This document shows, piece by piece, positions 31,898 through 35,092 of a DNA stretch of 64,000 nt (its first letter is position 1; each line of letters starts with the position of its first letter). The stretch comes from Anaeromyxobacter sp. (GTDB taxonomy: Bacteria; Myxococcota; Myxococcia; Myxococcales; Anaeromyxobacteraceae): assembly GCA_049840735.1 (NCBI GenBank), contig JASGJN010000026.1, forward strand, positions 512,001 to 576,000, written 5' to 3'. Made by a program: the position numbers and the translations under genes. The notes below the pieces were generated by a model. It ran no database searches, was not told the origin of the DNA, and worked only from the letters and a program-made list of their open reading frames with translations.

Positions 31898-32117
31898 GCG
31901 CCGGGCCGGAGGCCGGCGGCGGGCCGGTCCGCGAGGTGGGCGGGCCGCCCAAGCCGGCGCCGCCGCGCCGCGCCGTAAGCGTATGCTGACCATGAACGCC
32001 CGTCCGCGGCGCGATGGCGCTGCGGCCGTGACAGAATCCGAGACACGCGCTCCTTACCTCCGCGGCGACACCGAGATCCGCCAGCGGCGCCCGCGCGGCG
32101 CCGGAGAGGGAGCCGAC

Positions 32118-32997
32118 ATGCCGCTGCTTTACCCCGAGCTGTTCCGGAACCTGGAGCGCGCCCGCTGGAACATGGCGGACGACGTGCCCTGGGACGCGTT
32201 CGACGCCTCCCTGCTCACCGAGGAGCAGGCGCTCACCATCAAGCACAACGCCATCACCGAGTGGTCGGCGCTGCCCGCCACCGAGATGTTCCTGCGCGAC
32301 AACCGCCACGACCACGACTTCTCGGCCTTCATGTCGGTCTGGTTCTACGAGGAGCAGAAGCACGCGCTGGTGCTGATGGAGTACCTGCGCCGCTTCCGCC
32401 CGGAGCTGGTGCCCACCGAGGAGGAGCTGGGGGCGGTCCGGTTCGAGTTCGACCCGGCGCCGGCGCTGGAGACCCTGATGCTCCACTTCTGCGGCGAGGT
32501 CCGGCTCACCCGCTGGTACAAGCGCGCCGCGGAGTGGCACACCGAGCCGGTCATCAAGCACGTCTACGGCCTCATCGCCGAGGACGAGGCGCGCCACGGC
32601 GGCGCCTACCTGCGCTACATGCAGCGCGCGCTGGAGCGGACGCCGGAGGAGGCGCGCGGCGCCTTCTCCAAGGTGGGCGTGCTGATGGCCGCGAGCGGCC
32701 TCTCCGGCAAGCCGCTCCACCCCACCAACCTGCACGTCAACAAGCAGCTCTTCCCCAACGACACGGTGCAGAGCCGCCTGCCGGATCCGGCCTGGCTGGA
32801 GCGCTGGCTGGACGAGCAGAATCCGCTTCGACCGCGGCTGCGAGGAGCGGGTGGTGCGGGCCATGCTGCGCAGCCTCTCGGCGCTCTTCGGCGAGACCTT
32901 CGAGACGGTGCGCGATCTGTCGCGCTACCGGCGGGCCAAGGCGCGGGGCGCGGCGGGCGGAGCGGACGAGGCGCCGGGGGGCGAGGCCCGCGCGTAG
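32118..32997 (+). CDS. Ferritin-like diiron protein; apparent frameshift near 32820
   Basis: EEQKH and DEARH ExxH motifs. Removing one A from GAATC (32819-32823) gives EQIRFDRGCEERVVR...TAG 32997. Confidence 0.8.
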
Positions 32998-33015
32998 GCG
33001 GTTCGTCCCGCTCCG

Positions 33016-33064
33016 CCCTTCGACTCCGCCGCGGCCTGGCCGCGGCTACGCTCAGGGCGAACGG
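33016..33064 (+). repeat. GTAG REP-like copy (partner of the IS-interrupted copy)
   Basis: cccttcgactccg-hairpin-ctacgctcagggcgaacgg. Confidence 0.85.
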
Positions 33065-33099
33065 TGGTACCAGACCCGTTCGGCCTTCTATGAAGCGGC

Positions 33100-33396
33100 G
33101 TCCCCGGTCAAGGGCCGGTGATGTCGTTTGTCCTGAAGCCTGGGCGGCGCTGGTTGGCCATCGGTCAGGGAGTCAGGCGAACGCGAGTTCCATCAGCCTT
33201 CTATTCGCGCTCAACAGGGGCGGCAGTGCCGCCGGCGCAGTGGGGGATTCGAGCAGGGGGCGCCATCTGAGCGACGGCCGTTCCTGGTGACCGGCCAAGG
33301 CCGAACTCGCGCTCACCCTGTCTCGAAACCCGCTTTCGCCTCACTCCCGGATCTCCGGCCCGGCGTCCGCCCGACTGGGTCCGATTTTTCGGTCGT
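33100..33396 (-). ncRNA. Predicted bridge/seek RNA of the IS1111 element (ends approximate)
   Basis: Stem-loop 33248-33327 with internal-loop segments matching the target; stem-loop 33182-33209 with segments matching the circle junction. Confidence 0.75.
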
Positions 33397-34428
33397 CTAG
33401 GCCATCGCGTTTCCCCTGCAGGTGCGGCTGCCGTCGAAGTCCTTCCCGTCCCTCATCATCGCGAACAGGATTCCGGAGAGTTTGCGCGCCAGCGCCACGA
33501 CGGCGACTGCGCGTCCCCTCCGCCGGTGGATCTTCCCCGCCCATTCGCGCAGCGGCAGCGACTCTGCGCTCTTGCTGCGCAAGACGCAGTGCGCGGCCTG
33601 GACGAGAAGCCAGCGCACCCTGGCGTTGCCGGTCTTGGTGATCCGCCCCTTGCGCTGTTTCTCGCCCGAGCTCAGCTCGCTAGGGACCAGGCCGCAGTAG
33701 GCGGACACCTGCTGGGCACTCTGGAAGCGCTTGGGATCATCGATGACGACGTCGTACGCAATGGCCGTCACGACGCCCACGCCTGGCGCCGTCGTGAGCC
33801 TCCGTACCACTGCGCTGTCGCGGGCGATGGCCTCGAGGTCAGCGTCGGCCTTGGCGATCCGGGCGTTCAGCGTGTCGAACATCAGCAGCAACGGCTCGAC
33901 CTCGTCGCGGACCTCGTCCGGCAGGGCCATCTCCAACACCACTCGCGCGAAGTGCTCGGCTTCGCAGCTCGGGGCCCGTAGCCCGTGGCTCCGCAAGGAC
34001 GTCCGGGTCACCGTGATGAACCGCGACCTGGTGCGGACCAGCGTGTCTCTCACCGACAGGCGGACAGCGACCGTCCGCCGGGATTCCGACCTCCGGTGGG
34101 CCGCTCGGTAGGTCCCTGAACGGCAAGCCTCGGCCAGCGCTCGGGCATCTCGCCGATCGGTCTTTACCCGCCTCGTCCGCGTCCCGTACATCGGCGCGTA
34201 ATTCGGGTCGGCCACGATCACTTCGTGCCCGAACGATTCGATGTGCCGCGCCACCCATTCGCTTTCCGTGGAGGCCTCCAGCAGGAGCTTGGCCCGCGGC
34301 CTGTTCGCGAGCACCTCGGCGAACCGGTCGGCCCGGGTGGGGATCCGCACCTCCAGAACCCCGCCCTCCGCGTTCAGGATGCAAAGCTGGCTGTCCTTCT
34401 TGTGCAGGTCGATGCCAATATGGTCCAC
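33397..34428 (-). CDS. IS110-family DEDD recombinase/transposase
   Basis: GIDLHK, LLEAS, KTDRRDA (DEDD); GLVPSELSSG...GRITKTGN C-terminal domain with Ser. Confidence 0.96.
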   Translation of the reverse strand: MDHIGIDLHKKDSQLCILNAEGGVLEVRIPTRADRFAEVLANRPRAKLLLEASTESEWVARHIESFGHEVIVADPNYAPMYGTRTRRVKTDRRDARALAEACRSGTYRAAHRRSESRRTVAVRLSVRDTLVRTRSRFITVTRTSLRSHGLRAPSCEAEHFARVVLEMALPDEVRDEVEPLLLMFDTLNARIAKADADLEAIARDSAVVRRLTTAPGVGVVTAIAYDVVIDDPKRFQSAQQVSAYCGLVPSELSSGEKQRKGRITKTGNARVRWLLVQAAHCVLRSKSAESLPLREWAGKIHRRRGRAVAVVALARKLSGILFAMMRDGKDFDGSRTCRGNAMA

Positions 34429-34515
34429 GGCTGGTCTCCACTCTCTGCGGCTCTGACCGCGTTGTGGGGCATTCGTGCCACCACCCCGAGGTGGAGGCCA
34501 GCCGCTTCATTCCAT

Positions 34516-34556
34516 CTGAGCGTAGCGCCCGCAGCGCGGGCGCGGAGCCAAAGGCC
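34516..34556 (-). repeat. Right part of the REP-like copy split by the IS (left part 33076-33086)
   Basis: Rejoined ccgttcggc-CT-gagcgtag equals the intact copy at 59706. Confidence 0.9.
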
Positions 34557-34561
34557 AGGCG

Positions 34562-35092
34562 TCACGCCCCCAGGAACCTCCGCGCCACCTCCTCCCAGGA
34601 GGCTACGCGGGAGTAGCGGGTCTCGCGCAGGTTCTTGGGGGCGCTGAAGAGGATGCCCTGCCCGCGGAAGCGGGCGAAGTGGTGCGGGCTGTCGTCGATC
34701 AGGTACTCGGCGGCCAGGATGCTCTTGTCCCCGCAGAAGACCACGTGGCTCCCCGGGTGGAAGGGCAGGTGGCGGCGCAGCCAGCCGAACTTGGCGCTGA
34801 AGGAGGCCGGGTACTCGGTGGCGGCGCTGGCCACGAAGACCTCGTAGCGCTCCGAGAGCCGCCGCACCACCTCCGCCGCGCCGGGCATGGGCGGCAGGTC
34901 GGCGAAGAACGCGCCCTCGTGCAGCATGGCCTCGTGCGCATCGCGGTGCTCGGGGCTCACCAGCTGGTGCAGCTCGCGGCCGGCCTGCTCGGCCTCGCTC
35001 CAGGCGTAGCCGAACCGGTCGCGGTACCAGGCCACCTGGGCGGTGTGGGTGTCCACCAGCACGTCGTCCATGTCGATGGCGATCCGCTCCAT
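34562..35092 (-). CDS. 5'(3')-deoxyribonucleotidase, HAD family
   Basis: IAIDMDDVL, KFGWL, CGDK, LIDD. Confidence 0.85.
   Translation of the reverse strand: MERIAIDMDDVLVDTHTAQVAWYRDRFGYAWSEAEQAGRELHQLVSPEHRDAHEAMLHEGAFFADLPPMPGAAEVVRRLSERYEVFVASAATEYPASFSAKFGWLRRHLPFHPGSHVVFCGDKSILAAEYLIDDSPHHFARFRGQGILFSAPKNLRETRYSRVASWEEVARRFLGA

What the first reader, a model, noticed from the sequence alone, without database searches (positions are those of the whole stretch)
33248..33327. Readable bridge-RNA target-binding loop programmed against the host REP repeat
Seen: on the transposase strand the 3' non-coding end reads GUUCGGCCU (33306-33298), an inner GGCCG/CGGCC hairpin, then CGCUCAG (33273-33267), all enclosed by an outer stem (33248-33263 with 33309-33327). 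The first segment equals the left target plus CT core (gttcggcCT). The second is the reverse complement of core plus right target (CTgagcg). Known: this left-guide / hairpin / right-guide layout is that of IS110 bridge RNAs (IS621), and IS1111 members encode the RNA downstream of the transposase. Inference: this is an RNA-guided recombinase whose specificity can be read directly. Both guides also run past the core to match the post-insertion junctions (ccatctgagcg 33263-33273 equals 34512-34522), possibly handshake-like bases. Whether this particular element is already catalogued cannot be told here.
Basis: partly seen in the sequence, partly recalled or inferred. Interest (0 to 1): 0.9.

Follow-up and report, generated by a model that had tools for sequence, protein, structure and literature searches.

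The report
IS1111-type bridge RNA aimed at REP
A small jumping gene in this bacterium carries, behind its transposase gene, a folded RNA whose two short guide stretches spell out the repeated host sequence it inserts into; this is a real but ordinary example of a mechanism published in 2024.

Summary
Window 33087-34517 (minus strand) is a 1431-bp IS110-family insertion sequence of the IS1111 group: 343-aa DEDD transposase, 10-bp subterminal inverted repeats, 7-nt left and 3-nt right extensions, and a 310-nt non-coding region behind the gene. Five copies in this genome all sit at the same point of a REP repeat.

The 80-nt feature (33248-33327) is the target-binding loop of the element's bridge RNA (seekRNA). 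GUUCGGCCU and CGCUCAG match the two strands of the target cgctc-AG-gccgaac around a 2-nt core. None of 20,000 shuffles gave both guides.

In 36 aligned relatives (45-66% protein identity, 33 different guide pairs) the same two loop segments change with each element's own flanks. The stems around them keep pairing through compensatory changes.

All 5 insertions lie in the REP variant that matches the guides exactly, which is 106 of 849 sites within 2 mismatches.

A second module reads the element's right end plus core: its 5-mer equals the last 5 nt in 40 of 43 relatives.

Transcription could not be tested. This is a new member of a known kind.

The parts
33087..34517 (-). Whole insertion sequence, 1431 bp (convention of Partridge/Hall: the left AG counted inside the element)
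   Evidence: Alignment of the 5 genomic copies loses identity exactly here. The two junction strings each occur 5 times in the genome.
33397..34428 (-). Transposase gene, 343 aa, GTG start. Motif positions: IGID at 4, LLEAS at 49, KTDRRDA at 89, GLVPSELSSG at 246.
   Evidence: ORF list. Pfam PF01548 + PF02371. NCBIfam NF033542 'IS110 family RNA-guided transposase', 249 bits against a cut-off of 140. PDB hits ISCro4 and IS621 transposases. Motif positions.
34501..34510 (-). Left subterminal inverted repeat ATGAAGCGGC
   Evidence: The core TGAAGCGGC is conserved in relatives.
33090..33099 (-). Right subterminal inverted repeat GCCGCTTCAT
34511..34517 (-). 7-nt left terminal extension AGATGGA (first two bases are the AG core copy)
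33087..33089 (-). 3-nt right terminal extension AGA
34518..34522 (-). Left half of the target in the REP (CGCTC), matched by the 3' guide
   Evidence: Identical in all 5 copies
33078..33086 (-). Core AG plus right half of the target (AGGCCGAAC), complementary to the 5' guide
   Evidence: Identical in all 5 copies
33248..33327 (-). Target-binding module (the finding): outer stem, internal loop with two guides, inner hairpin. Its 80 nt is the size of the short seekRNAs (82-96 nt) reported for IS1111 elements.
   Evidence: Folds. The consensus structure of 28 relatives leaves the guides unpaired. 96.4% of cells are paired, 5 of 12 pairs have changes on both sides, and 0 of 500 shuffles reach this. 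seekRNA sizes from PMC11187229 section 9.
33298..33306 (-). 5' guide GUUCGGCCU: complement of the transposase-strand AG + GCCGAAC
33276..33296 (-). Inner hairpin GGCCGGUCACCAGGAACGGCC between the guides
   Evidence: The C-to-U change in copies C21 and C22 keeps a G.U pair.
33267..33273 (-). 3' guide CGCUC + AG (same sense as the transposase strand, so it pairs with the other strand)
33263..33266 (-). Run-on AUGG matching the first bases of the element after the core. AU (33265-33266) behaves as a handshake guide; GG belongs to the conserved GGCGCC stem motif.
   Evidence: Handshake guides are defined in PMC11208158.
33196..33204 (-). Right-donor guide AUAGA + core AG (+GC) in the second module
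   Evidence: The 5-mer equals the last 5 nt of the element in 40 of 43 relatives, across 4 variants
33207..33238 (-). Inner stem (GCGCC with GAGCGC) and apical hairpin of the second (donor) module
   Evidence: Consensus fold of 36 relatives; the apical hairpin pairs show 12-13 sequences with both sides changed
33239..33247 (-). Candidate left-donor guide (UCCCCCACU, ends in the core complement CU). Weak.
   Evidence: Local alignment score to the reverse complement of the element's own left end: mean 10.5 against 8.3 for other elements' ends. The window copy itself scores only 7.
33324..33349 (-). 5' arm of a long closing helix that would enclose both modules (predicted RNA about 33349-33167, about 183 nt)
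   Evidence: Duplex with 33167-33192: -41.2 kcal/mol. Across relatives, own partner mean -23.2 against cross -16.5; the own partner is in the best 10% for 20 of 36.
33167..33192 (-). 3' arm of the closing helix
33106..33111 (-). TTGACC, a possible -35 half of a promoter completed only in the excised circle
   Evidence: TTGAC lies 14-20 nt from the right end in 37 of 45 relatives. Junction promoters in this family are described in PMC12288879 (passages). Not tested.
34518..34560 (-). Larger part of the interrupted REP copy (left flank)
33010..33066 (+). Neighbouring uninterrupted REP in opposite orientation; its target reads CTCAGGGCGAAC, one mismatch to the guides

Best explanation
Window 33087-34517 (minus strand) is an intact IS1111-group member of the IS110 family. 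Its 3' non-coding region encodes a bridge RNA (seekRNA) of roughly 180 nt.

The first module (33327-33248) is the target-binding loop. The 5' guide GUUCGGC-CU pairs with the transposase-strand AG-GCCGAAC. The 3' guide CGCUC-AG pairs with the opposite strand of the left half. Together the two guides read both strands of the 14-bp REP site cgctc-AG-gccgaac around a 2-nt core. Two further bases (AU) after the 3' guide can pair with the element's own left end after strand exchange (a handshake).

A second module presents AUAGA-AG, which matches the element's right end plus the core, so it would hold the donor (the circle junction).

The DEDD/Ser recombinase bound to this RNA would exchange strands at the AG core. 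That inserts the excised circle precisely into REP copies that match the guides.

Shown here: the anatomy, the guide/target identity, covariation of guides with flanks in relatives, conservation of the fold, and site choice among REP variants. Inferred from published work on relatives: that the region acts as RNA bound to the transposase, and the strand-exchange chemistry.
For: (1) Protein. Pfam PF01548 + PF02371. NCBIfam NF033542, 249 bits against a cut-off of 140. PDB hits to ISCro4 (E 1.5e-15) and IS621 (E 1.1e-12) transposases.

(2) Ends. The 5 copies share ...gctacgctc|AGATGGA-ATGAAGCGGC...GCCGCTTCAT-AGA|aggccgaacgg.

(3) Target. The uninterrupted site GTTCGGCCTGAGCG occurs 101 times.

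(4) Chance. 0 of 20,000 shuffles hold both guides.

(5) Relatives sampled. One search returned 80 loci. Both ends were found in 62. Of these, 59 had enough flank; with the window that makes 60, giving 45 distinct non-coding regions.

(6) 5' guide against right flank. A match of 7 nt or more was found in 32 of 45 elements with their own flank, against 173 of 1624 cross pairs.

(7) 3' guide against left flank. Anchored on the element's own first bases, at least 4 contiguous flank bases matched in 22 of 35 own, against 14 of 1482 cross.

(8) Column-anchored test on 36 aligned RNAs with 33 different guide pairs. The five flank columns of the 3' guide match own flanks 72-94% and other elements' flanks 23-34%. 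The first handshake column matches 92% against 46%.

(9) Fold. In 28 sequences 96.4% of cells are paired, 5 of 12 pairs have changes on both sides, and 0 of 500 shuffles reach the observed values. Sliding the partners drops pairing to 30-70%. The guides are unpaired in the consensus.

(10) Donor module. The 5-mer before the core equals the element's last 5 nt in 40 of 43 relatives, across four variants.

(11) Site choice. All 5 insertions are in exact-match sites. The genome holds 101 empty exact sites, 340 with one mismatch and 403 with two.

(12) Guide order. The top-strand complement comes first, then the bottom-strand complement. This is the order reported for IS1111 seekRNAs (PMC11187229 abstract and section 9).
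Against: No transcript evidence could be obtained.

No sigma-70-like promoter or intrinsic terminator was found in 33000-34600.

No Rfam family matched at E <= 1.

In the free-energy fold of this copy, 3 nt of each target guide pair with each other, and the right-donor guide is mostly paired (unpaired probability 0.07-0.25 for 7 of its 9 bases).

In 13 of 45 relatives the best 5'-guide match is under 7 nt.

Column-anchored identity of the 5' guide is only 47-75% for the nine guide columns, against 17-58% cross; the first of the ten columns compared is the base before the guide and matches 22% against 21%. Part of the shortfall is because one clade is shifted by one column.

The flank-only test for the 3' guide had no power: both guides properly spaced were found in 4 of 45 own against 30 of 1624 cross.

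A left-donor guide is only weakly detectable, and weakest in the window copy.

The base after the core in the donor module is an invariant G. It does not follow the target, so a second handshake is not supported.

Relatives are not phylogenetically independent.
Confidence: 0.9

Rival explanations
1. The loops are genuine bridge-RNA modules but the element is now a relic in this genome: no transposition occurs and the RNA is not made in useful amounts.
For: 2 of 5 copies have broken transposase frames, reading 182 and 167 aa from the start. No promoter-like site was found in the linear element.
Against: 3 of 5 copies, including the window copy, keep the full 343-aa frame. The copies are 98-100% identical. 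The guides are identical in all five. All five sit in exact-match sites. In this family a promoter can be assembled only in the excised circle (PMC12288879 passages), and a conserved TTGAC sits near the right end.
Confidence: 0.1
2. The non-coding end acts as DNA, not RNA. Single-stranded DNA segments of the element end would pair with the target, as the guide sequences of IS200/IS605 elements do.
For: Sequence alone cannot tell RNA from DNA pairing.
Against: The protein is an IS110-family DEDD recombinase, for which an RNA co-purifying with the enzyme and required for transposition has been shown in four IS1111 and one IS110 member (PMC11187229 abstract). The guides sit 180-220 nt inside the element, in a fold conserved through G.U-tolerant compensatory changes: G.U or U.G pairs occur in 6 of the 12 pairs counted. 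That fits RNA rather than DNA.
Confidence: 0.03
3. The matches are not guides. The element would simply have captured or retained a fragment of the REP, or the resemblance is chance.
For: REPs are very abundant in this genome: 844 sites lie within 2 mismatches of the 14-mer.
Against: The two halves are split, lie in opposite senses, and are separated by a conserved hairpin. 0 of 20,000 shuffles reproduce them. Relatives in other phyla, with unrelated targets that are not this REP, carry their own flank sequences in the same columns.
Confidence: 0.01

Closest known systems
ISPa11, ISEc11, ISKpn4 and ISPst6 (IS1111 family) with their seekRNAs (Siddiquee et al. 2024, PMC11187229)
   Same: Transposase of 330-350 aa with the GL-P----SG motif. 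Subterminal inverted repeats with 7-nt and 3-nt extensions. Long non-coding region downstream. A module of about 80-96 nt with the top-strand complement placed 5' of the bottom-strand complement. Precise insertion with no added bases. That ISPa11 inserts into REP copies is my recollection; the passages read say only that its target logo rests on more than 1000 insertions.
   Different: The best plasmid-borne relatives of this transposase are at most 35.5% identical, so this is a distant clade. It was found here mainly in Gemmatimonadota and Vicinamibacterales assemblies. The inverted repeat is 10 bp, just under the 'usually 11-13' quoted. No experiment exists for this element.
IS621 bridge RNA (Durrant et al. 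2024, PMC11208160; Hiraizumi et al. 2024, PMC11208158)
   Same: Two guides per loop read opposite strands on either side of a CT (=AG) core. A hairpin sits between the guides. A 2-nt handshake guide follows the guide that pairs with the core's top strand. The RNA is about 180 nt. The target is a REP.
   Different: The IS621 RNA lies upstream of the gene, in the left end. Relative to the gene, the guide order here is reversed. Here the donor module is not a simple internal loop: its left-donor guide is degenerate, and no second handshake is supported. Protein similarity is only E 1.1e-12.
ISPpu9 / ISPpu10 of Pseudomonas putida (PMC12288879)
   Same: IS110-family elements inserted at an AG dinucleotide inside REP copies, several copies per genome.
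   Different: In ISPpu9 the bridge RNA is described as preceding the tnp mRNA on the transcript (passages). Here it follows the gene. No Ssr9- or Asr9-like RNAs were looked for here.

Membership tests
IS110 family (DEDD RNA-guided transposases) | N-terminal RuvC-like DEDD domain plus C-terminal Transposase_20 domain | tested here: met
   PF01548 (E 8.3e-13) and PF02371 (E 1.1e-23). NF033542 at 249 bits, above its 140-bit cut-off.
IS110 family (DEDD RNA-guided transposases) | Catalytic D, E, D, D and the Ser of the SG motif | tested here: met
   The pairwise alignment to ISCro4 keeps IGID, lEA.ST, KTD..DAR and the ...SG motif. Motif positions are 4, 49, 89 and 246. The IS621 residues are named in PMC11208158. 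Equivalence rests on alignment and motif only.
IS110 family (DEDD RNA-guided transposases) | Precise site-specific insertion at a 2-nt core, no longer duplication | tested here: met
   AG lies at both junctions of all 5 copies, and there is a single AG in the 101 empty sites.
IS1111 group | Subterminal inverted repeats (7-17 bp; usually 11-13) | tested here: met
   10-bp perfect repeat ATGAAGCGGC / GCCGCTTCAT. This lies within the 7-17 range quoted in PMC11208160 and one short of the 'usually 11-13' in PMC11187229.
IS1111 group | Asymmetric terminal extensions, 7 bp left and 3 bp right | tested here: met
   AGATGGA and AGA. The rule is quoted from PMC11187229.
IS1111 group | Long non-coding region downstream of the transposase gene | tested here: met
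   310 nt downstream (33087-33396) against 89 nt upstream.
IS1111 group | Transposase of 330-350 aa with the GL-P----S(t)G motif | tested here: met
   343 aa, with GLVPSELSSG at 246-255. The criterion is from PMC11187229 section 6.
IS1111 group | Transposase falls in the IS1111 clade of a family tree | not tested
   No tree with named IS1111 and IS110 references was built. No ISfinder sequences were available.
Bridge RNA / seekRNA | Two guide segments in one loop, complementary to opposite strands of the target, overlapping at the core | tested here: met
Bridge RNA / seekRNA | Guides covary with the target across related elements | tested here: met
   (own against cross controls).
Bridge RNA / seekRNA | Order of guides as in IS1111 seekRNAs (top-strand complement first) | tested here: met
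   GUUCGGCCU (complement of the transposase strand) precedes CGCUCAG. The rule is from PMC11187229.
Bridge RNA / seekRNA | Second loop with left- and right-donor guides | tested here: inconclusive
   The right-donor guide plus core covaries (40 of 43). The left-donor guide is only weakly supported. PMC11208160 notes that many IS1111 RNAs hold donor-binding bases in a multi-loop.
Bridge RNA / seekRNA | Handshake guides in both loops | tested here: inconclusive
   Target loop: the first handshake column matches 92% own against 46% cross. Donor loop: the base after the core is an invariant G, and by my reading of the listing the next base fits the target in only 5 of 11 target classes.
Bridge RNA / seekRNA | The RNA is transcribed and bound by the transposase | not testable with these tools
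   No RNA run was listed for this element. Expression and binding need bench work.
IS621-type (IS110 group) bridge RNA | RNA encoded in the left end, upstream of the gene | tested here: not met
   The structured, guide-bearing region is downstream. It therefore works like the IS621 RNA but is not of that group.

The most novel reading that the evidence does not exclude
This clade, found in soil Gemmatimonadota and Acidobacteriota and in this genome, may use a variant bridge-RNA architecture. The donor would be read asymmetrically. The right end plus core is read by a strict 7-nt guide. The left end would be held mainly by the conserved subterminal repeat, a degenerate guide in a multi-loop, and the 2-nt handshake of the target loop. 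If so, only the target loop would need reprogramming, on a compact scaffold that is conserved across relatives carrying 33 different natural guide pairs and that can tell REP variants apart by a single base.
Probability: 0.2. Interest if true: 0.45.

Novelty: new member of a known kind. Interest (0 to 1): 0.3.

Why it matters
It matters modestly. It shows that the specificity of an uncharacterised IS1111-type element can be read directly from sequence and checked by comparison alone. It supplies a natural set of 33 guide pairs on one conserved scaffold from GC-rich soil bacteria. It also gives in-genome evidence that the guides discriminate REP variants differing by one base: 5 of 5 insertions are in the exact-match class, which is 106 of 849 sites. 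It does not open a new question, because the mechanism, its placement in IS1111 elements and REP targeting are already published.

Tried and rejected
- Rfam scan of 32500-35000 at E <= 1: no match.
- RNA sequencing runs: none was listed.
- Promoter and terminator scan of 33000-34600: 0 and 0 sites.
- Orthologous empty site: the IS was not found in the 20 relatives searched, 12 of them of the same genus. The best syntenic match (G006, L112) has no REP after the neighbouring gene, so no orthologous empty site could be shown. Paralogous empty sites were used instead.
- Flank-only longest-match test for the 3' guide: no power. At least 5 nt matched in 42 of 45 own against 1479 of 1624 cross. Both guides properly spaced were found in 4 of 45 against 30 of 1624. 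It was replaced by the anchored tests.
- AUGGAA at 33188-33193, which matches the element's left end: rejected as a guide. The aligned bases in relatives do not follow their left ends (L099), and in this copy the stretch pairs in the closing helix.
- Run-on GC after the donor-module core as a second handshake: rejected.
- Search of the held supplementary files of PMC11208160 (7 files, one cut when stored, one unreadable) and PMC11187229 (6 files, one unreadable) for the repeat and donor-module strings: only 3 occurrences of the 10-mer, in an unrelated alignment, and none in the second paper. Whether this element is catalogued could therefore not be told.
- Earlier-findings look-up: nothing.

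Full report
**What is there.** The minus strand of window 33397-34428 encodes a 343-aa protein. It carries Pfam DEDD_Tnp_IS110 and Transposase_20. It scores 249 bits on NCBIfam NF033542, 'IS110 family RNA-guided transposase', whose cut-off is 140. Its only solved relatives are the ISCro4 and IS621 transposases, at E 1.5e-15 and 1.1e-12.

A DNA search of the window's own genome (6.67 Mb, 26 contigs) found five copies of the element at 98-100% identity. Aligning them with their flanks fixes the ends. On the transposase strand the sequence reads ...gctacgctc | AGATGGA-ATGAAGCGGC ... GCCGCTTCAT-AGA | aggccgaacgg.

This gives window 34517-33087, 1431 bp. It has a 10-bp perfect subterminal inverted repeat, a 7-nt left extension and a 3-nt right extension. 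There are 89 nt before the gene and 310 nt after it. These are the features that Siddiquee et al. give for the IS1111 family: extensions of 7 and 3 bp, NCR downstream, transposase of 330-350 aa, and a GL-P----S(t)G motif, here GLVPSELSSG at 246-255 (PMC11187229 sections and passages read; motif position).

Three of the five copies keep the full frame. Two are broken, reading 182 and 167 aa. No other IS110-family gene is present in the genome.

**The target.** Both junctions carry AG. The uninterrupted site, GTTCGGCCTGAGCG on the plus strand and cgctc-AG-gccgaac on the transposase strand, occurs 101 times in the genome. Each junction string occurs 5 times. The site lies near one end of a REP-like repeat that is present in hundreds of copies. 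In the window the interrupted REP is paired with an uninterrupted, inverted neighbour.

**The observation.** The free-energy folds pair 33327-33309 with 33263-33248 and form the inner GGCCG/CGGCC hairpin. For the whole 321-nt stretch folded, z is -2.5. In 20,000 dinucleotide-preserving shuffles of the non-coding region, none held both guide strings 15-60 nt apart. One blemish: in this copy GGC of the 5' guide and GCU of the 3' guide are predicted to pair with each other.

**Test on relatives.** A scan of one genome per species returned 80 loci encoding relatives at 45-66% identity. Most come from Gemmatimonadota and Vicinamibacterales assemblies. The repeat core TGAAGCGGC / GCCGCTTCA and the extensions (AGxTxGxA on the left, xAGA on the right) are conserved, so the ends could be placed in 62 loci. 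Of these, 59 had enough flank. With the window that gives 60 elements and 45 distinct non-coding regions.

The flanks of these elements are unrelated to one another. Yet in each element the reverse complement of the right flank appears about 90-130 nt into the non-coding region. About 30 nt later comes the left flank, followed by AG and the first bases of the element.

Controls:
- A right-flank match of 7 nt or more: 32 of 45 own, against 173 of 1624 cross pairs.
- At least 4 contiguous left-flank bases immediately before the AG anchor: 22 of 35 own (10 elements had no anchor), against 14 of 1482 cross.
- A flank-only test of the 3' guide had no power, and this is reported as such.

The layout is nearly fixed: arm - GAGCGCG - N - 5' guide - U - GGCCGC...GAGAGCCG - N - (5 flank nt + AG + 2 nt) - GGCGCC - arm. 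The two conserved motifs lie 45-46 nt apart in most elements and 50 nt apart in the window.

On an alignment of 36 full RNA regions there are 33 different guide pairs. (Forty elements had both anchors; four near-duplicates, L040, L076, L092 and L097, were left out. Five lacked an anchor.) The five flank columns of the 3' guide match the element's own flank in 72-94% of sequences and other elements' flanks in 23-34%. The nine 5' guide columns match 47-75% against 17-58%; the column before the guide matches 22% against 21%. The 5' figures are lowered by a one-column register shift in one clade.

**The fold.** On 28 target-loop sequences RNAalifold predicts the outer and inner stems and leaves both guides unpaired. 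For 12 pairs, 96.4% of cells form standard pairs and 5 pairs have changes on both sides, for example GAGCGCG/GGCGCC becoming GAGCACG/GGUGCC. None of 500 shuffles reaches the observed pairing or covariation score. Sliding the partners by 1-3 columns drops pairing to 30-70%.

The single difference between the five genomic copies in this module is a C-to-U change in the inner hairpin, and it keeps a G.U pair.

**Handshake.** Hiraizumi et al. define handshake guides as the two bases after the core-pairing part of the right guide. They pair with the non-cognate DNA after strand exchange (PMC11208158, passages).

Here the 3' guide continues AUGG, identical to the element's first bases after the core. 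In relatives the first of these columns follows the element's own left end in 92%, against 46% for other elements' ends. The second gives 83% against 75%. The two G's belong to the conserved GGCGCC stem.

So a handshake of about 2 nt is supported in the target loop. The extra U after the 5' guide is the invariant U of the U.G pair closing the inner hairpin, and is not a handshake.

**The donor side.** A second module follows. It has a stem GCGCC/GAGCGC with an apical hairpin rich in compensatory changes. The stem is followed by A-xAGA-AG. The 5-mer equals the last 5 nt of the element in 40 of 43 relatives, across four variants: ACAGA, AGAGA, ATAGA and ATAAA. In the window this is AUAGAAG at 33204-33198.

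The segment before the stem resembles the reverse complement of the left end only weakly. The mean local alignment score is 10.5 for own ends against 8.3 for others, and the window copy scores 7.

The base after the core is an invariant G and does not track the target. The AUGGAA that matches the window's left end does not covary, and it pairs in a long closing helix.

That helix joins 33349-33324 with 33192-33167 at -41.2 kcal/mol. Across relatives the own-partner duplex averages -23.2 kcal/mol against -16.5 for cross partners, and the own partner is in the best tenth for 20 of 36.

The whole RNA would thus be about 183 nt, with the donor-reading bases in a multi-loop. Durrant et al. remark on this arrangement for many IS1111 elements (PMC11208160 passage).

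**Site choice in the genome.** Within two mismatches of the 14-nt target there are 101 exact empty sites, 340 one-mismatch sites and 403 two-mismatch sites. The commonest variant (118 copies) differs by one base. All 5 insertions are in exact-match sites. If the element chose among these 849 sites at random, five exact hits would be expected with probability of about 3e-5 (my arithmetic, assuming independent events).

**Origin.** The element's G+C content is 67.4% against 73.7% for the window. It was not found in the 20 relatives searched, 12 of them of the same genus. Same-genus relatives do carry the REP. The best plasmid-borne relatives are at most 35.5% identical. This fits a recent arrival from outside the genus.

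**What could not be done.** No RNA run was listed for this stretch, so transcription, RNA ends and processing are untested. No promoter-like or terminator-like site was found in the linear element. A TTGAC lies 14-20 nt from the right end in 37 of 45 relatives, TTGACC at 33111-33106 in the window. It could be the -35 half of a promoter completed in the circle, as described for this family (PMC12288879 passages). This was not tested. Whether the element is catalogued in ISfinder could not be determined.

**Comparison and verdict.** The mechanism is the one published in 2024. For IS621 it is a bridge RNA with target and donor loops. For the IS1111 elements ISEc11, ISPa11, ISKpn4 and ISPst6 it is a downstream seekRNA with the top-strand complement first (abstracts and sections read). 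The window element meets every IS1111 feature that could be tested. It works like IS621 but is not of that group, because the RNA is downstream and the guide order is reversed relative to the gene.

The finding is a new member of a known kind, of modest interest.

Noticed in passing
own genome, contig C20 211357-212041: A tandem array of at least 9 REP units at about 79-bp spacing. REPs of this family are also present in same-genus genomes that lack the IS.
   Followed up: no
window 33106-33111 (minus strand) and the right ends of L033-L109: TTGAC is conserved 14-20 nt from the right end in 37 of 45 related elements. It may be the -35 half of a promoter formed only at the circle junction.
   Followed up: partly
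L049: In this relative the core reads AA instead of AG in the left end, the right flank, the 3' guide and the donor module alike. This is a natural change of the core carried through all four places.
   Followed up: partly
own genome C4:42300-43731 and C26:118178-119614: Two copies with frameshifted transposase genes keep both RNA modules and both ends intact, so the three intact copies could move them in trans.
   Followed up: no
L033, L034, L042, L056, L062 (right flank starts AA); L036, L040, L044, L052 (GG); L054 (AT): In a minority of relatives the dinucleotide after the right end is not AG, although their donor module still reads ...AGAAG. In the AA group the 5' guide is shifted by one column. 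The ends may be offset by one base there, or the cores may be mismatched.
   Followed up: no
L065-L071, L078-L083, L098, L107: One Vicinamibacterales chromosome (OZ252227.1) contributes 15 of the 80 returned loci. Most have the same flanks (...GTCGGGG | AGGATCTTCA...), so the relative there has also multiplied into a host repeat.
   Followed up: no
window 33010-33066: The REP next to the insertion, in inverted orientation, is unoccupied. Its target differs from the guides by one base (CTCAGGGCGAAC).
   Followed up: partly
window 31983-33290 (plus strand ORF): The 435-aa ORF listed here runs through the REPs into the element's non-coding end and is overextended. In another frame a TAG at about 32995-32997 is followed directly by the REP, which fits the neighbouring gene ending there; no ORF was checked against this.
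   Followed up: no
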